A DNA stretch of 64,000 nucleotides from a virus. The stretch covers positions 32,596-96,595 of the IMG/VR virus record IMGVR_UViG_3300031603_000002; one strand, written 5' to 3'. Both the position numbers and the translations under genes were made by a program. Position 1 is the first letter of the stretch, and every line of letters starts with the position of its first letter. Below the pieces are notes generated by a model. The model worked only from the letters and a program-made list of their open reading frames with translations, made no database searches and was not told the origin of the DNA. This document shows positions 28,198 through 56,978 of this stretch, in pieces.

Positions 28198-28665
28198 ATG
28201 ACTAACGAAGAAAGATTTGCCAAAGCAAGGGCTCGAATTGGCCCGTCAACTCATCCGGCCCCTCCTAAAGTTTTGCCTCAAATCGGTGAGCCCACCGAGA
28301 ACATCAAGTCAGACGACAAAGTGTTGATACGTCCATTTCCATGGAAACTGAAAGCAGATTGGAGTGGAGGCAGGTATGGTTTCAGGCATCAACCATGCCA
28401 TTATATTTGGCTTAAGGGAACTGTTGTCGACCACGAGTCATTTCCAATCTCCAACGGAGTGTTTGTTCAATTCGACAAGAACCAAAACGAATTTGCCGTT
28501 GCTGAAGACTACGAACGCTGGAATAACTGCCCACTGTTTTTCACATGGGAGCAGGTTTCAAAAGGGATCAAGCATTTGTATACACAACATGGGTTCAAGC
28601 AAGGTGATGTTGTAAGACGTAAAAACGCGGATGAAACTGAAATCAAGGAGAAAAGCGAATGCTAG
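28198..28665 (+). CDS. hypothetical protein
   Basis: tightly packed ORF. Confidence 0.6.
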   Translation: MTNEERFAKARARIGPSTHPAPPKVLPQIGEPTENIKSDDKVLIRPFPWKLKADWSGGRYGFRHQPCHYIWLKGTVVDHESFPISNGVFVQFDKNQNEFAVAEDYERWNNCPLFFTWEQVSKGIKHLYTQHGFKQGDVVRRKNADETEIKEKSEC

Positions 28666-28871
28666 GACCACCTGTTTGCGATAAATGCGAACTGATTATG
28701 CAACCAACGACTGATCAGACATCCCCTGATATTCATCATTATGTCTGCCCAAAATGCACGACCCAAAACTGTCACACGTTCAGCAATCGACCAATACTAA
28801 CACGTCAAAACTATCGTAAGATTGTGGCTGACACGTTCCACTTTCTGGAGAAGCATGCTGAAGGAAAATGA
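28659..28871 (+). CDS. small Zn-ribbon protein
   Basis: CDKC...CPKC; AGGAG SD. Confidence 0.6.
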   Translation: MLGPPVCDKCELIMQPTTDQTSPDIHHYVCPKCTTQNCHTFSNRPILTRQNYRKIVADTFHFLEKHAEGK

Positions 28872-29187
28872 GTGCCTCGAGGAAGATGAGTTCAAAACCG
28901 GAGATTTGATTTGGACGATAGGAATCAATTCACCGTATATGCAGTATACATCGTTTTCGGCCTTACTCATTGATGCTGAAAACAAAATATTACTTTTCGA
29001 GTGCAAGAAAAAGAAATGGAAAAACCGATTCTACAAAACAGAACAGGAAGCAAAAGACGCGGTCGATGCTAAGCGTCGGAGTATGTATATGAGTGCCAAA
29101 GACATATGTTCTGTTCAGCCTATGACATTACCCAAGAGTGAAATATTTCACCTCCCATATGAATACAAATACAACGAGGATGACTAA
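28855..29187 (+). CDS. SH3-like protein with C-terminal capsid-protein-like (Gol-region) peptide
   Basis: FKTGDLIWTIG...FYKTEQEA scaffold; tail AVDAKRRSMYMSAKDICSVQPMTLPKSEIF resembles gp23; GGAG SD. Confidence 0.65.
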   Translation: MLKENECLEEDEFKTGDLIWTIGINSPYMQYTSFSALLIDAENKILLFECKKKKWKNRFYKTEQEAKDAVDAKRRSMYMSAKDICSVQPMTLPKSEIFHLPYEYKYNEDD

Positions 29188-29479
29188 AGTGCAAAAGTTC
29201 TATACGGTATGGGAAAACACGAATCCTGATGAACTCGAAGACAGCATTATGTCTATCATTTCATATAAAACGCAGACTGAAGTTGCCCAACTGCGAAAAC
29301 AATCGCCGAGAGCGGTCAGCAACAGGCATTGTGAAGCCGATTGGTATTTCAGGCCAGTCGCACCAGATGATGAAACAATCGCCGAAATGTTCGGGGATAA
29401 TTGGAAATATGAAACAGCTGCCGGCTTTAAGACCGACGAGGCTTTCACAGAGTGGAATAGGGGAAAAGAATGTTTGTAA
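29180..29479 (+). CDS. hypothetical protein
   Basis: overlap-coupled ORF. Confidence 0.55.
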   Translation: MTKVQKFYTVWENTNPDELEDSIMSIISYKTQTEVAQLRKQSPRAVSNRHCEADWYFRPVAPDDETIAEMFGDNWKYETAAGFKTDEAFTEWNRGKECL

Positions 29480-30093
29480 AGAAGGTAGTGAGTAACTTGT
29501 TGAAGTCTGAAGCTGCGCTCAAGAACGAGCCAGTGATTGTGTACGTCAACAAGTTTAATGAGGAAGCAGCTAAGAAGTTCTCCGAGGACATGGCAAAAGC
29601 CCAGGGAACCGGTCAACCTGTTATTCCTATCGTTATTGATAGTTATGGTGGCGCTGTATATTCGCTGATGTCCATGGTGTCAGCAATCAAAGCATCAGAA
29701 GTTCCGGTCGCTACAATTGTACTTGGAAAAGCAATGTCGTGTGGTACTGTTTTAGCTTCATGTGGTGCTGAAGGCATGCGATTTTGTTCGCCTGACGCAA
29801 CATATTTGATTCATGATGTTTCGTCATGGGCTGTCGGCAAGGTTGAAGAAATGAAAGTCAGCACCAAAGAATCCGACCGACTAGACAAGAAGTTGTACAC
29901 CCTGATGGCACGTAACTGTGGGCAGAAGGACAATTACTTCAAAAAGCTCAGTCGTAAGAAGAAGGGCGCCGACTGGTTCTTCACACCAAAAGAAGCAAAG
30001 AAGCACAATATGGCAAACCATATCTGCATTCCAAAAATGACAGTCAGCGTCGATGTCAACTTCAAGTTTCACAACTGCGATGAGGGTGAATAA
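29470..30093 (+). CDS. clpP: ClpP-like protease
   Basis: IDSYGG.V, AMSCG (catalytic Ser), YLIHD, DWFFTPKEA. Confidence 0.9.
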   Translation: MFVKKVVSNLLKSEAALKNEPVIVYVNKFNEEAAKKFSEDMAKAQGTGQPVIPIVIDSYGGAVYSLMSMVSAIKASEVPVATIVLGKAMSCGTVLASCGAEGMRFCSPDATYLIHDVSSWAVGKVEEMKVSTKESDRLDKKLYTLMARNCGQKDNYFKKLSRKKKGADWFFTPKEAKKHNMANHICIPKMTVSVDVNFKFHNCDEGE

Positions 30094-30096
30094 GTC

Positions 30097-30513
30097 ATGG
30101 ATATCCCCGGGTTTGAAATTAAGGTAAACGTTCCGCCAAAGCCTCGAAAGCTAAGAACGAAATGGGCCAGCGAACCAATCACGGACACACCCGAGGGGCT
30201 ATCAGAAACTCTGAAAAAAGATACTATAAGAGATATAATATCTCAACAGATAGCTGACGAAATTGATGCTGAGATTGCAGCTGATTTCGCTGAAAAACTT
30301 GGTACACTCCACGTGCGATTTGAGGTCGTCCCGAGAAAGGGTATGATGGTGAATTACTGCCATCCTATGAACGAAGAGAAGATGCCAGGATTGATTCTGC
30401 GCGAATGGGATCCAAACGTCAAGAACTCTGGACAAATCCTGCTTGGTGGTGGAACCAAATTCGCTTTCGCAAGTGATGACAACGCTGAGCAATGGTTCGA
30501 GGAAGTTAAATGA
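30097..30513 (+). CDS. protein with N-terminal capsid-protein-like segment and C-terminal SH3-like domain
   Basis: GFEIKV..PRKLRTKW...IISQQIADEIDAEI resembles the gp23 middle segment. Confidence 0.65.
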   Translation: MDIPGFEIKVNVPPKPRKLRTKWASEPITDTPEGLSETLKKDTIRDIISQQIADEIDAEIAADFAEKLGTLHVRFEVVPRKGMMVNYCHPMNEEKMPGLILREWDPNVKNSGQILLGGGTKFAFASDDNAEQWFEEVK

Positions 30514-30788
30514 ACCCAATGATGCCCAAGAAACCATGGTACAGCGGTCAAGGAATGAGAGTAAACCATGCAAGCGTAAAACTTACGCAGGTCCCGAAAG
30601 CAGGCGATTTGATAAAGTATGTGTTTACGCCTGCAGGTGGGATCGTGAGGTTTGGACTATGTATACAACCACAGATACATGACGGTGTAGGAAGTTTGCT
30701 AATAAATGGCGAAGTCTGGACATTTTCAGATCACCCGACATGTCAGATTGCCTGGTTTGATGTCGTTAACAACAAGGAGATAATATGA
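30510..30788 (+). CDS. SH3-like hypothetical protein
   Basis: VPKAGDLIKY; resembles the C-terminal half of 30097. Confidence 0.6.
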   Translation: MNPMMPKKPWYSGQGMRVNHASVKLTQVPKAGDLIKYVFTPAGGIVRFGLCIQPQIHDGVGSLLINGEVWTFSDHPTCQIAWFDVVNNKEII

Positions 30789-41160: not shown

Positions 41161-41337
41161 ATGAACAAAGCAACAATCAACATCGACAAAAACCTACACA
41201 AAAAACTGAAATTGCATTGTGCAATTCATGGTGTAAAACTAGGCACGCTCGTTGATAAGATTGTTGAGGGGTGGTTGGAAGATGCTGGTAGAAATAACGA
41301 GAGAGAACGGGATCCGCGAAGCGATTCTCAAGTGTGA
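41161..41337 (+). CDS. ribbon-helix-helix DNA-binding protein (not in ORF track)
   Basis: MNKATINIDKNLHKKLKLHCAIHGVKLGTLVDKIVEGWL, 58 aa; ATACTTA 6 nt upstream. Confidence 0.7.
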   Translation: MNKATINIDKNLHKKLKLHCAIHGVKLGTLVDKIVEGWLEDAGRNNERERDPRSDSQV

Positions 41338-42220
41338 CCAATGTGATGATACGTTCAGAAAAACGTTTGGTTTCACAAAAAGATTTCATTTTTGTTCAAA
41401 GAAATGTGTATACGCAGCCCAAAGAAAAGGCGGTGTGTCGTATGAACTAAGAAAGAAAAGGTCACTTGAAAAGCATGGTACAGAATTTCCGATGTCAACT
41501 GACGCCGTCAAAAACACCCGCAGAAAAAACGTTAGGGCGAAATATGGTGTCGACAGCGTGTTTCAACTTGAAAGCATGAAGGAAAAGTCAAAACAGACAT
41601 GCCTTGAAAAGTACGGTGTTGAGGTTTATTCACAGGTTGATGAGTTTAAGGAACGCATCGCAGCAACTAACATGACGAAATTTGGCTATGGATCTCCAAT
41701 CGAAAATCCTGACGTTTTGGCGCGCCGCCGTACAACAATGCTTCGATTGTATGGAGGTCGATCAACATTCGAATCGCCTGTATTGCGCGAGCGAGCAAAA
41801 CGAACATGCCTTGAAAGATACGGTGTGCCAAATATCGTTTATTCACCATCATTTATTAGTTCATCGATGGACAAAAAACTCATGAAAACCCATGGTAAGA
41901 CATGGCAGCAATACAAAGACGAGCTACCTGCAAATCACGATTATAGACGAAGGGTCGATCATGTAACGAGAATGCAGCCAATTCATTTGCTTCAAAACAG
42001 CGAAAAAAGAGGTGAGTATCACTTGGACCACAAATATTCAGTAGCAGAAGGCTTCAGGAATAACGTCCCAGTTGAAATTATCGGGAGCATTGCAAATCTT
42101 GAATTTATACCCGCGACTGATAACATGAAAAAGGGCGCAGCATGCTCTATTACTGAACAACAGTTACGAAAACTATACTATACTAATCTAAAGGAGAACA
42201 CAAACAATGAAAACACATAA
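41282..42220 (+). CDS. free-standing HNH-like homing endonuclease with T.LEKYG repeats
   Basis: CDQC/FCSKKC; repeated KQTCLEKYGV-type units; YHLDHKYS...NLEFIP...N..K. Confidence 0.75.
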   Translation: MLVEITRENGIREAILKCDQCDDTFRKTFGFTKRFHFCSKKCVYAAQRKGGVSYELRKKRSLEKHGTEFPMSTDAVKNTRRKNVRAKYGVDSVFQLESMKEKSKQTCLEKYGVEVYSQVDEFKERIAATNMTKFGYGSPIENPDVLARRRTTMLRLYGGRSTFESPVLRERAKRTCLERYGVPNIVYSPSFISSSMDKKLMKTHGKTWQQYKDELPANHDYRRRVDHVTRMQPIHLLQNSEKRGEYHLDHKYSVAEGFRNNVPVEIIGSIANLEFIPATDNMKKGAACSITEQQLRKLYYTNLKENTNNENT

Positions 42221-42662: not shown

Positions 42663-42951
42663 TATAAAATTGACGTTGACGCCGTCAATCGTGAACCATG
42701 AAGCAACTGTAAACGGTGTTGATGTTTGGTCAATCAAGCGGGGCTATATGTATTGGAACATTGCCGAGAACAGGACTGAAAAGTTTGATCCGCCACAGTA
42801 TAAAATGTTGGGCCTTTATGAAAAGATCGATGCCGAATCAGAGTTTGCACGCTCAGGCCGAGCTCACACGGTTACAATTATCAACTTCCCATCATTTAAG
42901 CCTCAGGAGATGTTTTTCAAGAAAATTGCTGAGGATGAGCTGGGAGAATGA
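42643..42951 (+). CDS. hypothetical protein
   Basis: GGAGG SD. Confidence 0.55.
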   Translation: MTQQSNNIKLTLTPSIVNHEATVNGVDVWSIKRGYMYWNIAENRTEKFDPPQYKMLGLYEKIDAESEFARSGRAHTVTIINFPSFKPQEMFFKKIAEDELGE

Positions 42952-43271
42952 TTCGCGGTACCTGCAAGGTTGGTGACTTAGTTTGGACGATCGGCCGAGG
43001 TATGCCGCATGCTGTTCGTCCTGGTTTGGTGACACGAGTAATAGCACCAACACACATCGAGTCGACATGGGATAAATATGAAGTCCTAGTCGATGGCCAG
43101 AAGAAAGAATTTTATGCAGAAAGCGTTTGTGAGTCAGAGGAGAAAGCTGAAAAGGTAGCTGTTGAATGCCGCCGCAACTCAGTCAGTCGTACAGGACAAA
43201 CATACCTTGAATCTGGTTTTGTTTATGCTCCGTATGTCCCGTTGGAAGTCACACCAACGCTGGTTGTTTAG
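42948..43271 (+). CDS. SH3-like protein with C-terminal capsid-protein-like peptide
   Basis: KVGDLVWTIG scaffold; tail GQTYLESGFVYAPYVPLEVTPT resembles the gp23 C-terminal strand. Confidence 0.7.
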   Translation: MIRGTCKVGDLVWTIGRGMPHAVRPGLVTRVIAPTHIESTWDKYEVLVDGQKKEFYAESVCESEEKAEKVAVECRRNSVSRTGQTYLESGFVYAPYVPLEVTPTLVV

Positions 43272-45780: not shown

Positions 45781-45821
45781 AAAAGGTTGAGTGTCCATGA
45801 ATGTTACCTATACTTAGACAC

Positions 45822-46733
45822 ATGAAGATATACACCAAAACATGCCAAGTTTGCGATTGCAAATTTGAAACGAAGAACGGGACAGTGAAAACCTGCGGGA
45901 AAACCTGTAGTTACAAGCTTAGGAACAAAACCAGGCACACTAAACATGAACCAATTGAGAAGGTGTGCCTGGTTTGCTCTGGAACGTTCCAAGACACCAG
46001 CAAAAAGAAACAGGTGTCCAAATGTTTTCCGTGCGTCCAGGACGGAATGGTGGCCACCAGAAGGGCAAATGGAAGCTATGTCCGGACTGACGAGCAGAAT
46101 GCGAAACTTAGTGCATCGCTAAATAAGATGTATGCAGCCGGAATCGGGTTTGTGTCTGATGAAGCAAAAGAGAGGATGTCGAAAGACTTAGCGGCTCGCT
46201 GGAAAACCGAAGAATTCAGAACAAAGGTGAAACAAGGATATTTGGAAAACCATGGTGTCGAGCACTGGACGAAAACACCTGAAGCTCGCAAACTTGCAAG
46301 CACCCGAAGTAAAGGATATCGGCACTCTGAAGAAACAAAACGAAAAATGAGAATATCGGCCTCAAAACGTATCCGTGAAGGCAGGAACAAACATTCATTT
46401 TTTGGCCGCGGGGGAACCCGTGAGGATCTAGGGTTGTATGTTCGAAGCAGTTGGGAAGCTAACTTCGCACGTTACTTGGCTCATGAAGGAAAAGTATTTG
46501 AATATGAACCTGACAGTTTCACGCTTGAAAGTGGAAGAACATACACACCGGATTTCAAAGTTGGTGATTTGTATTACGAAGTGAAGGGTTGGTGGACACC
46601 CAGGGCGAAAGAAAAGTTTGCTGAATTTAGGGTGCAATACCCTGAAGTAAAAATTGAAATAGTCGATGAATCTGCGTATAATGATCTTTGTGGACGATAC
46701 TCATCCACAATACAACACTGGGAATCTAAATGA
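45822..46733 (+). CDS. free-standing PD-(D/E)XK homing-type endonuclease with NUMOD3 and Zn ribbons
   Basis: CxxC repeats, KGYRHSEETKRKM, RSSWEANFA...YEP...YTPDF...EVKG; ATACTTA 5 nt upstream. Confidence 0.8.
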   Translation: MKIYTKTCQVCDCKFETKNGTVKTCGKTCSYKLRNKTRHTKHEPIEKVCLVCSGTFQDTSKKKQVSKCFPCVQDGMVATRRANGSYVRTDEQNAKLSASLNKMYAAGIGFVSDEAKERMSKDLAARWKTEEFRTKVKQGYLENHGVEHWTKTPEARKLASTRSKGYRHSEETKRKMRISASKRIREGRNKHSFFGRGGTREDLGLYVRSSWEANFARYLAHEGKVFEYEPDSFTLESGRTYTPDFKVGDLYYEVKGWWTPRAKEKFAEFRVQYPEVKIEIVDESAYNDLCGRYSSTIQHWESK

Positions 46734-55591: not shown

Positions 55592-56307
55592 ACAAATTCA
55601 CCTTAAAAAAACTAGTCTACGGTCGACTTTTCGAGCAGGACGAAGAACCCGATGTTGAACCAGAGGGTGGCGACGATGACCTTTTCGGAGATGAAGACGC
55701 TAGTGGCGACGACGGCGAAATTTCCGGTGATGCTGGCGGCGAAGGTGGAGAAGAAGGCGCCGAAGAATTCGGTGATGATGCTGACTTTGGCGGCGGCGGC
55801 GGCGGTGGTGGAGGTATGGGCGGCGGCGGCGGCGGCGGAATGGGTGGAGATGACATGGGCGGAGAACCAGCAGCTGAAGCTGAACCAGAGGTCGAGGTTT
55901 CTGCCGCAGAGGAATACAGTATGAGCGACTCAATTGATCAAGAGCTTGACGCTCTCATGATTGATTTTGAGGAAGAGGCCAGAAAATCATCAGTCGTAAA
56001 TTCACCTGTCACCGAGTCTCGTATGCTTTATGAGGGAGAAGGAAGTGACATTGACCTTCAAAGCTTTGCAGCTAATGTTGCAAGGTTCGTAAAAAATTAC
56101 CAGAACTTGATTGATTGGGAGTCAGTAATCCTAAACAAGGCGAGGTCATTTGTCAATAATCACTATGGCGAAGAAACATCAAAGGCACTCTTCGATATTT
56201 TGGAACAGGAATATGACATTGAAACAGGAAGCATCGGCGGAACCGAAAAAGAAGAAGCACCAGAAGCCCCAATTGCGGTCGGTGGCTCAGCGGCAGGCGG
56301 ACTCTAA
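55588..56307 (+). CDS. acidic Gly-rich late protein
   Basis: MNKFTLKKLVYGRLFEQ; poly-Gly/acidic linker. Confidence 0.7.
   Translation: MNKFTLKKLVYGRLFEQDEEPDVEPEGGDDDLFGDEDASGDDGEISGDAGGEGGEEGAEEFGDDADFGGGGGGGGGMGGGGGGGMGGDDMGGEPAAEAEPEVEVSAAEEYSMSDSIDQELDALMIDFEEEARKSSVVNSPVTESRMLYEGEGSDIDLQSFAANVARFVKNYQNLIDWESVILNKARSFVNNHYGEETSKALFDILEQEYDIETGSIGGTEKEEAPEAPIAVGGSAAGGL
55789..55863 (+). repeat. GGN trinucleotide run encoding poly-Gly
   Basis: two (GGC)n tracts separated by ATG. Confidence 0.85.
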
Positions 56308-56317
56308 AGTTAGGGCA

Positions 56318-56593
56318 ATGCTCAACGCGGGCAGGAAGAAATCTGTTCATGTTTCAATGTTTGGTAAAACACACATGGGCTTGAAAAAGGAACTGGTGAC
56401 GCGTGGTCTATCAATTCAGGAGACGCTAGAGTACGTTGCATCATTGATCGTTGAAGGCCATCCTCATGCAATTAAAATGCTCGATGAGCTCCAAGCTTCA
56501 AAACACAACAAAGAGGTTGGCAAGCTTGAAGAAAAATACGCTGAGAACCTTTACGATGTAATCGGTAATGAAGGTCTCTTCAAGGAAAACTAA
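56318..56593 (+). CDS. RHH-like small DNA-binding protein
   Basis: KKSVHVSM..KTH..LK..L...GLSIQE. Confidence 0.55.
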   Translation: MLNAGRKKSVHVSMFGKTHMGLKKELVTRGLSIQETLEYVASLIVEGHPHAIKMLDELQASKHNKEVGKLEEKYAENLYDVIGNEGLFKEN

Positions 56594-56594
56594 C

Positions 56595-56978
56595 ATGTGG
56601 ACAAAAACAAAAAACTTTGTGTCGAAATATTGGCAGGTACTCATCGGTGTCGCGTTAGCAATCGGTTTGTCGATTCGATTTGCTTTGATATCCCATGAGC
56701 AGCGACAGGTTCTAACGAATGAAATAGAGACCAACATTCGTATTGATGAAATCAAAAGGCAATATGACGTTAGCATTGCTCGCCATGAAAAGGCCATTGA
56801 AAAAACCCGTAGCGAAGCGCTCGTAAAAATCGAAACTGCAAAGATTAAAGACTTGAAGGCTGCGAAAGATAAGGCCATCGAACGAGAGCAGGAAAATGGA
56901 AAGCTTACAGGTGAGGAGCTGACCAAGCGCTTTGCCAATACATTCGGTGCGGAGGTTGTTGATGCAGAAGATGAGTAA
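56595..56978 (+). CDS. membrane-anchored coiled-coil protein (inner-spanin-like)
   Basis: N-terminal TM helix followed by charged coiled coil. Confidence 0.55.
   Translation: MWTKTKNFVSKYWQVLIGVALAIGLSIRFALISHEQRQVLTNEIETNIRIDEIKRQYDVSIARHEKAIEKTRSEALVKIETAKIKDLKAAKDKAIEREQENGKLTGEELTKRFANTFGAEVVDAEDE

What the first reader, a model, noticed from the sequence alone, without database searches (positions are those of the whole stretch)
29059..29166. Gol-peptide mimic at the C-terminus of a small accessory protein
The tail AVDAKRRSMYMSAKDICSVQPMTLPKSEIF aligns with the T4 Gol peptide as I recall it (AVMGMVRRAIPNLIAFDICGVQPMNSPTG, about gp23 residues 94-122), keeping AV, RR, A.DIC.VQPM..P. Established: Gol binds EF-Tu and activates the Lit protease. 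Inference: a decoy or inhibitor of Lit-like surveillance, or an EF-Tu-binding effector.
Basis: partly seen in the sequence, partly recalled or inferred. Interest (0 to 1): 0.85.

Follow-up and report, generated by a model that had tools for sequence, protein, structure and literature searches.

The report
Capsid-piece tail on small phage protein
A small gene of an uncultured giant marine T4-like phage, kept by selection, ends in an old copy of the best-conserved stretch of the phage's own head-shell protein (the stretch that in T4 sets off the Lit defence). At least four sister genes carry other pieces of the same shell protein; their function is untested, and I found no such design in print.

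Summary
ORF 28855-29187 (110 aa, "golA") ends in a 29-residue tail (res 78-106). This tail is homologous to the Gol region of gp23-type major capsid proteins (MCP): Pfam Gp23 scores above its cut-off, hhalign gives E 1.6e-8, and shuffle tests give p 1e-4 against T4 gp23 and 3e-6 against the phage's own MCP.

Only the C-terminal half of the 29-residue Gol peptide is matched.

The gene is real (dN/dS about 0.1). It has 7 homologues of 107-115 aa, six of them with the full tail motif. The carrier is an SH3-like barrel, and the tail is predicted to be disordered on its own.

It is not a lone Gol mimic. The same phage has at least four more small proteins carrying other MCP pieces: window 30097-30513, window 42948-43271, and two outside the window. 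Together they tile most of the MCP core outside the insertion domain.

The Lit/EF-Tu decoy idea is neither tested nor favoured. Free Gol activates Lit, and the tail is only about 46% identical to an almost frozen MCP segment.

My best guess (0.35) is a strand-docking element acting on the MCP or on the other MCP-piece proteins.

Earlier notes of this scan report the same design in at least eight other giant phage genomes. I found nothing like it in the literature.

The parts
28855..29187 (+). golA: 110-aa gene holding the finding. Its ATG overlaps the stop of the upstream ORF by 17 nt, and its stop overlaps the likely ATG (29180) of the next ORF.
   Evidence: ORF list and sequence. Three orthologues at 71-86% identity and four distant homologues of 107-115 aa. 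dN/dS 0.10 against L009 with dS about 1.7. Synteny kept in L009, L014 and L016.
28891..29085 (+). Carrier domain (res 13-77): a five-stranded small beta-barrel plus a closing helix (63-77).
   Evidence: AF2 with a 10-sequence alignment: pLDDT 81-91 over res 10-70. VIA-wide top matches are chromo-barrel, Tudor and KOW barrels, Z 5.0-5.5, so a fold class only. Foldseek found nothing significant. Paralogous to the carrier of golC: hhalign 94% probability, E 1e-7.
29086..29172 (+). MCP-derived tail (res 78-106), equal to own MCP 94-122 and T4 gp23 about 106-131. Core motif D-I-C-S-V-Q-P-M-T-x-P ... F-H-L-x-Y-E-Y-K-Y.
   Evidence: It is the most conserved region across the family (46-49% against 29-38% for the barrel); Q88, M90, T91 and Y104 are invariant. 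Tail dN/dS 0.07-0.23. pLDDT below 50, so disordered alone. Third codon positions match the MCP gene at chance level (7/24), so the copy is ancient.
29173..29184 (+). Acidic C-terminal tip (N-E-D-D). Most homologues also end in an acidic tip, but P0008 does not.
   Evidence: Alignment A2.
29180..29479 (+). Unknown ORF between golA and the protease (99 aa from ATG 29180, or 113 aa from GTG 29138).
   Evidence: No family hit. dN/dS 0.39, and part of it overlaps golA.
29470..30093 (+). ClpP-like serine protease, an accessory gene and not the head-maturation protease.
   Evidence: PF00574 E 1.5e-25. A T4-type prohead protease (PF03420) lies elsewhere at G000:7538-7954. dN/dS 0.034.
30097..30513 (+). 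fragB: 138-aa protein. Its N-terminal part (about res 2-89, of which hhalign aligns 13-89) copies own MCP 369-463, the I-domain linker 2 / E-loop return strand plus the spine helix. This is the structural partner of the strand that golA carries. The C-terminal half is another small domain, weakly like the next ORF.
   Evidence: Smith-Waterman p 3e-7. hhalign 87% probability, E 3.6e-6. Pfam Gp23 17.9 bits, below the cut-off. dN/dS 0.086.
30510..30788 (+). 92-aa ORF, weakly similar to the C-terminal half of fragB, with no capsid piece.
   Evidence: Smith-Waterman p 0.016 only. dN/dS 0.089.
42948..43271 (+). golC: 107-aa paralogue of golA. The carrier (res 7-75) is the same, but the tail (res 80-105, nt 43185-43262) copies own MCP 566-591 (motif Y-A-P-Y-V-P-L).
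   Evidence: Smith-Waterman: carrier p 7e-6, tail p 5.5e-9. hhalign: tail E 1e-8, carrier E 1e-7. Orthologues in G001 (41% identity) and P0013 keep the tail while the carrier drifts.

Best explanation
golA is a real, selected gene of a jumbo (about 320 kb) marine T4-like phage. It encodes a two-part protein. The first part is an SH3-like beta-barrel with a closing helix. The second is a 29-residue tail, flexible on its own, that is an ancient copy of MCP residues 94-122. In the MCP this segment is the first ordered P-domain strand and the start of I-domain linker 1, the T4 equivalent of the HK97 E-loop.

Proposed mechanism (inferred): the tail is a detachable beta-strand docking element. It pairs with the elements that this strand pairs with inside the capsid fold, namely the return linker and the spine helix. 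Those elements occur in the MCP itself. They also occur, without a partner strand of their own, in two other MCP-piece proteins of the same phage: fragB, three genes downstream in the same gene string, and a 229-aa 'mini-MCP' near the head genes.

golA would thus be a natural 'fragment of the parent protein' that acts on the parent's own interaction network. It would either modulate or cap MCP folding and assembly intermediates, or form a hetero-complex with the other MCP-piece proteins, with the barrel as the payload.

Shown: homology, selection, domain layout, paralogy and the set of five. Inferred: docking and the partner.
For: - Homology of the tail to the MCP.
- The residues kept across 27-87% identical homologues (D..S/T-V-Q-P-M-T-x-P...F..Y.Y) are those conserved in the Gp23 family, that is, fold and contact residues.
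- The tail is disordered alone, while the barrel is confidently folded.
- fragB and the mini-MCP hold the complementary linker 2 and spine helix. The mini-MCP lacks MCP 96-382, which includes the strand golA carries.
- golA, the ClpP-like gene and fragB are packed with overlapping or abutting ORFs and are syntenic in all close relatives.
- The five pieces cover MCP 11-122, 369-522 and 566-591, most of the core outside the insertion domain.
- In the 318-kb relative, the four best small-to-large protein matches (E <= 1e-3) all go to the MCP. Shuffled and reversed controls give none at that level.
- In T4 the I-domain linkers make intra- and inter-capsomer contacts, and gp23 66-105 is flexible before expansion (PMC9546572).
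- Fragments of a protein can inhibit the parent's interactions (PMC9245647).
Against:
- The gene lies in the replication and nucleotide-metabolism region, about 48 kb from the MCP gene, not in the head module.
- The neighbouring ClpP-like gene is not the head protease.
- A folded MCP already holds its own strand, so a trans strand could only act on intermediates or on partner-less pieces.
- The golC piece is probably a buried core strand (my inference from fold knowledge, not tested here).
- The one distant homologue whose context is held (L017) has no fragB or ClpP within 2 kb.
- Virion presence and expression timing are unknown.
Confidence: 0.35

Rival explanations
1. Decoy or antagonist of a host factor that reads conserved linear MCP segments in newly made capsid protein. 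The factor could be a Lit/EF-Tu-type abortive-infection sensor, another capsid-sensing defence, or EF-Tu or a chaperone itself. The tail would occupy the reader without activating it, and the other MCP-piece proteins would do the same for other segments.
For: [quoted passage not shown]
- Capsid proteins are frequent defence triggers (PMC9712102, PMC13728456).
- There is precedent for a phage protein that competes with a structural trigger for its sensor: DSAD1 against the tail tube on DSR2 (PMC11087589).
- The tail is displayed as a disordered peptide.
- The gene sits among accessory genes (Dam methylase, ligase) rather than head genes.
- The carriers evolve faster than their neighbours, while the tails are kept.
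Against: - Free Gol peptide activates Lit, so a copy should trigger it rather than protect (PMC3014915, PMC9712102).
- Only 15 of the 29 Gol residues are matched.
- The tail is about 46% identical to the phage's own MCP segment, which is 76-95% conserved in the best 120 of the 950 related MCP fragments found, so it does not track what a sensor would read.
- Several other pieces are probably buried in the folded MCP (inference from fold knowledge, not tested here).
- The host is unknown.
- I found no MCP-fragment decoy in the literature.
Confidence: 0.2
2. Exapted motif: the captured capsid segment now serves an unrelated role, such as self-association of the mini-protein or binding of some other phage or host target. 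Its likeness to the MCP would be only historical.
For: - The copy is ancient: third codon positions match at chance level.
- The tail has drifted to about 46% identity while the MCP segment stayed frozen.
- The tail varies in its middle (T-x-P-x-x-x) even among close orthologues.
- One distant member (P0009) has a degenerate motif.
Against: - Five independent genes keep pieces of the same protein, and two paralogous carriers bear different MCP pieces at the same junction. That is hard to explain without a link to the MCP.
- The residues that are kept are the Gp23-family ones.
Confidence: 0.25
3. Relic: a decaying leftover of a partial capsid-gene duplication, or a mis-called ORF, with no function for the tail.
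For: Partial duplicates of structural or injected-protein genes exist as small ORFs in T4 (alt.-1 and alt.-2, annotation). No family or fold match explains the protein.
Against: - dN/dS is 0.10 for the gene and 0.07-0.23 for the tail, at near-saturated dS.
- The ORF is intact in every relative.
- The tail is the best-conserved part in homologues down to 27% identity.
Confidence: 0.05

Closest known systems
Gol region of T4 gp23 in the Gol / Lit / EF-Tu exclusion system (prophage e14; review PMC3014915)
   Same: It is the same capsid segment by homology: golA 81-104 aligns to gp23 108-131 with 12 of 24 residues identical, including D-I-C-x-V-Q-P-M. In both cases a short linear peptide is the active unit or the displayed unit.
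   Different: Gol is part of the capsid protein itself, whereas here a copy sits on a separate small protein. Only the C-terminal 15 of the 29 Gol residues are matched. No Lit, EF-Tu binding or host is known here. Sister proteins carry other, non-Gol pieces.
Inhibitory (dominant-negative) fragments of parent proteins (PMC9245647; PMC10769210)
   Same: A fragment of a protein is expressed in trans and can engage the parent's native contacts.
   Different: Those fragments are engineered and were tested in E. coli. Here the fragments are natural, ancient, fused to carrier domains and kept by selection, and no inhibition has been shown.
DSAD1, the phage anti-defence protein that competes with the tail tube trigger for DSR2 (PMC11087589)
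   Same: It is a small phage protein thought to occupy the site that a structural protein occupies.
   Different: DSAD1 is not described as derived from the trigger. golA carries an actual copy of a piece of the capsid protein, and no sensor is known for it.
T4 alt.-1 / alt.-2, an old partial duplication of the start of gene alt kept as small ORFs (annotation of NC_000866)
   Same: Partial copies of a virion-protein gene persist as separate small ORFs in a T4-type genome.
   Different: Those lie beside the parent gene and are not fused to a carrier domain. Here the pieces are scattered, chimeric and under purifying selection.
Terminal docking peptides for HK97-fold shells (encapsulin cargo-loading peptides, T4 capsid-targeting sequences; from my own knowledge, not checked here)
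   Same: A short disordered terminal peptide on a small folded cargo could address it to an HK97-fold shell.
   Different: Known targeting peptides are not copies of the shell protein. The N-terminal L-x-E cleavage-type motif is not conserved in golA orthologues, and there are no virion data.

Membership tests
Pfam PF07068 Gp23 (T4-type major capsid protein) | Score at or above the family's gathering cut-off | tested here: met
   25.7 bits against 24.4, but only profile positions 6-47 of 376 are matched. The distant homologues P0006-P0008 each hit phrog_138 on their own.
Pfam PF07068 Gp23 (T4-type major capsid protein) | Complete HK97-type fold (P domain, spine helix, A domain), that is, a shell-forming subunit | tested here: not met
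   Only 29 residues are MCP-like; the other 80 form an unrelated small barrel. The true MCP is a 628-aa gene at G000:12303-14189. golA is therefore not a capsid protein.
Gol peptide (functional definition: gp23 94-122) | Sequence equivalence over the whole 29-residue peptide | tested here: not met
   Homology covers gp23 108-122 only. The N-terminal 14 residues correspond to the carrier helix, which is shared with golC.
Gol peptide (functional definition: gp23 94-122) | Binds EF-Tu domains II-III | not testable with these tools
   No complex prediction or assay was available. The critical residues mapped by Copeland and Kleanthous (2005) could not be read because the paper is not held.
Gol peptide (functional definition: gp23 94-122) | Makes EF-Tu a substrate for Lit cleavage at Gly59-Ile60 | not testable with these tools
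   This needs the in vitro cleavage assay. The host and any Lit homologue are unknown.
SH3-like small beta-barrels (Tudor / chromo-barrel / KOW) | Five-stranded barrel topology with a significant structural match | tested here: inconclusive
   The top 50 VIA-wide rows are nearly all such barrels, but Z is only 5.0-5.5, below the level at which a match means more than a common arrangement. Foldseek E >= 0.46.
Phage capsid-fragment mini-proteins (undescribed set; defined here and in earlier notes of this scan) | Small carrier domain plus a short, selected copy of a conserved MCP segment, with several such genes per genome | tested here: met
   golA, fragB and golC in the window, and the mini-MCP and fragD outside it. 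Selection. Census.

The most novel reading that the evidence does not exclude
The five MCP-piece proteins are a phage-made panel of antagonists derived from defence triggers. Each displays a conserved linear capsid segment that occupies, without activating, host sensors that read newly made capsid protein (Lit/EF-Tu type and others). This would shield a protein that is too constrained to escape by mutation.
Probability: 0.15. Interest if true: 0.9.

Novelty: categorically new. Interest (0 to 1): 0.7.

Why it matters
If the tails act through their likeness to the capsid protein, this would be a natural, evolved use of 'fragments of a parent protein' by a virus. The phage would use them either to steer assembly of its own giant capsid or to blunt capsid-sensing immunity. 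Either way it would give direct handles (short peptides on soluble carriers) for probing T4-type capsid assembly and the long-open question of why the Gol region is so conserved. Even with the function unknown, a recurring and selected design, in which several genes per genome each carry a different piece of one structural protein, is not in the literature I could search. It is also easy to test.

Tried and rejected
Searches that gave nothing useful:
- phmmer of golA against PDB sequences: no hit at E <= 10.
- Megablast of the locus against phage records: no match.
- tblastn against phages: only weak hits (E >= 0.3) to full-length MCPs.
- ESM Atlas: scores <= 0.82, within noise.
- Foldseek against PDB: nothing at E <= 0.001.
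- The first AF2 run with 4 sequences was too poor to use.
- Representative search: the long hits P0005, P0010 and P0011 are repeat proteins and false positives.
- The 'shorter' search with the MCP segment returned only truncated genuine MCPs, no further chimeras.
- Promoter and terminator scan: at chance level. The T4 late-promoter motif was too rare to inform.
- Pfam and PHROGs see nothing in the mini-MCP or fragD.

Ideas rejected:
- Tails as gene-conversion donors or a recent duplication: third codon positions match at chance level.
- The ClpP-like neighbour as head-maturation protease: a PF03420 protease exists elsewhere.
- A T4-type N-terminal capsid-targeting leader on golA: L-x-E is not conserved in the orthologues.
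- The carrier as homologous to the MCP propeptide: the 95%-coverage tblastn hit to the Mel-JY01 MCP has E 0.7. I judged, without testing it, that it is driven by the tail.

Unavailable:
- The two JBC papers on Gol are not held.

Full report
**What is there.** The finding lies in a 110-aa ORF on the + strand, with ATG at 28855 and stop at 29185-29187. I call it golA. Its start overlaps the stop of the upstream ORF by 17 nt. Its stop overlaps a likely ATG (29180, preceded by GAGG) of the next ORF. The genes from the Dam methylase (27280) to the ligase (31507) therefore form one tightly packed + strand string.

The window is bases 32596-96595 of a 96.6-kb virus record that CheckV rates 28% complete. 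A relative holding the same locus is a 318-kb contig rated 93% complete. This is therefore a jumbo phage. Related contigs come from Tara and other metagenomes that I take to be marine from their names.

The neighbourhood is a replication and nucleotide-metabolism region: UvsX-like recombinase, DnaB-like helicase, ribonucleotide reductase, Dam methylase, ligase and Fpg. The head genes lie about 48 kb upstream and outside the window. They include a 628-aa gp23-type MCP at G000:12303-14189 and a T4-type prohead protease at G000:7538-7954.

**Check of the observation.**
- The quoted residues are there, and 29059-29166 encodes golA residues 69-104.
- The likeness is significant by several independent measures:
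  - Pfam Gp23: 25.7 bits against a cut-off of 24.4, golA 67-107 against profile positions 6-47.
  - phrog_138 major head protein: E 2.5e-5.
  - Smith-Waterman against 2000 shuffles: p 1.3e-4 for T4 gp23 (12 of 24 identical, golA 81-104 against gp23 108-131) and p 2.7e-6 for the phage's own MCP.
  - hhalign of the 8-member family against an MCP alignment: 95.5% probability, E 1.6e-8, golA 78-106 against own MCP 94-122.
- phmmer against PDB sequences found nothing, so this is a short-segment homology.

The homologous block begins at golA A81 = gp23 A108, so it covers only the last 15 residues of the 29-residue Gol peptide and then continues 9 residues past it. The 'AV' and 'RR' matches need gaps. 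They sit in the helix (63-77) that closes the carrier domain. The paralogue golC has the same helix end (..AV.CRR.S) but a quite different tail. RR is also not kept in the distant family members.

**It is a real gene, and the tail is its most constrained part.**
- Against the 318-kb relative, dN/dS is 0.10 with dS about 1.7. The neighbours give 0.03-0.12.
- For the tail alone, dN/dS is 0.07-0.23.
- Word-index and exhaustive profile searches found three close orthologues (71-86% identity, 108 aa) and four distant homologues (27-42% identity, 107-115 aa). All have the same two-part build; six keep the tail motif [DN]-x-x-x-V-Q-P-M-T-x-P ... [FL]-x-[LM]-x-Y-[DE]-Y, and it is degenerate in the distant member P0009.
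- The long hits of the profile search are repeat proteins and not relatives.
- Between distant members the tail is 46-49% identical, against 29-38% for the barrel.
- Third codon positions of the tail match the MCP gene at chance level (7 of 24). The copy is therefore ancient and kept at the protein level, and it cannot serve as a recombination donor.

**Structure.** With a 10-sequence alignment, AF2 gives a confident five-stranded barrel plus helix for residues 10-78 (pLDDT 81-91) and pLDDT below 50 for residues 79-110. VIA-wide ranks chromo-barrel, Tudor and KOW barrels first, but at Z 5.0-5.5, which supports a fold class only. Foldseek gave nothing significant. The picture is a folded SH3-like carrier that displays a flexible capsid-derived peptide and ends in an acidic tip.

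**Where the piece sits in the capsid fold.** In T4 gp23, residues 66-105 are flexible in the unexpanded head. Residues 132-160 belong to I-domain linker 1. The two I-domain linkers are the equivalent of the HK97 E-loop and make intra- and inter-capsomer contacts (PMC9546572). The aligned block, gp23 108-131, is therefore the first ordered P-domain strand running into linker 1.

**It is not alone.**
- fragB (30097-30513, three genes downstream, after the ClpP-like protease). Its residues 2-104 match own MCP 369-478, which is linker 2 plus the spine helix (Smith-Waterman p 3e-7; hhalign E 3.6e-6 over fragB 13-89). dN/dS is 0.086.
- golC (42948-43271). Its carrier is paralogous to golA's (p 7e-6; hhalign E 1e-7). 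Its tail copies own MCP 566-591, motif Y-A-P-Y-V-P-L (p 5.5e-9; hhalign E 1e-8). Orthologues at 41-54% identity keep the tail while the carrier drifts.

Searching the whole record with the MCP found two more genes outside the window.
- A 229-aa 'mini-MCP' (G000:17492-18181) matches MCP 11-95 (p 1.4e-6) and MCP 383-436 (p 2e-3). It lacks MCP 96-382, which is the strand golA carries plus the insertion domain.
- A 168-aa protein, fragD (G000:20205-20711), matches MCP 442-522 (p 6e-15).

Together the five pieces cover MCP 11-122, 369-522 and 566-591. That is most of the core outside the insertion domain.

I also ran a census in the 318-kb relative, comparing 272 small ORFs with 121 large ones. The four best small-to-large matches (E <= 1e-3) all go to the MCP. 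They include a further 162-aa ORF matching MCP 426-530. Shuffled and reversed controls give no hit at that level.

The homology claim is right. The functional claim (a Lit decoy or an EF-Tu effector) is untested and now looks too narrow.
- The Gol-like piece is one of at least five MCP pieces.
- Only half of Gol is present.
- Free Gol activates Lit (PMC3014915; PMC9712102), so a plain copy should trigger it rather than protect.
- The phage's own MCP segment is almost frozen: 950 related fragments were found, and the best 120 are 76-95% identical over 51 residues. The golA tail is only about 46% identical to it and varies among close orthologues.
- On the other side, a phage protein that competes with a structural trigger for its sensor is a known principle (DSAD1 on DSR2, PMC11087589), and capsid proteins are common triggers. 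I therefore keep this rival at 0.2.

**Most likely mechanism (0.35, inferred).** The residues kept in the tail are the family-wide fold and contact residues. The tail is disordered alone. Its natural pairing partners, linker 2 and the spine helix, are present in the MCP and, without a partner strand, in fragB and the mini-MCP. I therefore read the tail as a detachable strand that docks onto those elements. golA would then either cap or modulate MCP folding and assembly intermediates, or form a complex with the other MCP-piece proteins. The effect resembles that of engineered inhibitory fragments of parent proteins (PMC9245647).

Against this reading:
- The gene is not in the head module.
- The neighbouring protease is not the head protease.
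- A folded MCP already holds its own strand.
- The one distant homologue with context (L017) lacks fragB nearby.
- No interaction could be computed.

The other rivals are an exapted motif with a new, unrelated role (0.25) and a relic (0.05, largely excluded by the selection tests).

**Novelty.** Literature searches for Gol/Lit, capsid decoys or mimics, and Lit inhibitors found no description of small phage proteins that display capsid-protein pieces. Earlier notes of this scan report the same design, on other carrier domains, in at least eight other uncultured giant T4-like phages. I did not check those notes. They suggest a recurrent design, and within this scan the design is not new. The function remains unknown.

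**Limits.** I therefore have no context for three distant homologues and no expression data.

Noticed in passing
outside the window: G000:C1:17492-18181 (L036:1492-2181): A 229-aa 'mini-MCP'. Residues 19-101 match MCP 11-95 and residues 119-175 match MCP 383-436. The strand that golA carries and the whole insertion domain are missing. Pfam and PHROGs see nothing in it.
   Followed up: partly
outside the window: G000:C1:20205-20711 (L036:4205-4711); also G001:209348-209836: A 168-aa protein whose residues 28-105 copy MCP 442-522 (p 6e-15), followed by a Cys-rich C-terminal half. The 318-kb relative has a further 162-aa ORF matching MCP 426-530 (E 7.5e-14).
   Followed up: partly
G001 (several small ORFs and a 369-aa ORF at 55802-56911); G000:C1:18298-18813: A leader-like motif M-K-I-T-K-K-x-L-x-R-L-I-N-E, at or near the N-terminus of several otherwise unrelated small proteins but internal (residues about 282-298) in the 369-aa ORF. 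It may be a propeptide or capsid-targeting leader.
   Followed up: no
window 29470-30093; G001:246797-247201: A ClpP-like protease sits between two capsid-piece genes although the phage has a T4-type prohead protease elsewhere. The 318-kb relative has a second ClpP-like gene.
   Followed up: partly
window 28659-28871: A 70-aa ORF with two CxxC pairs (zinc-ribbon-like), translationally overlapped by golA. dN/dS is 0.05 and no family was assigned.
   Followed up: no
L009 9362-9802, against window about 28640-28660: The 318-kb relative has about 440 nt extra between the orthologues of the 155-aa and 70-aa ORFs. In L014 only the first 31 residues of the 155-aa ORF are matched. This spot just upstream of golA is variable.
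   Followed up: no
window 41252-42220 and 45801-46733: Homing-endonuclease-like genes (phrog_3339; NUMOD3 plus an endonuclease I-like domain) flank the region that holds golC.
   Followed up: no
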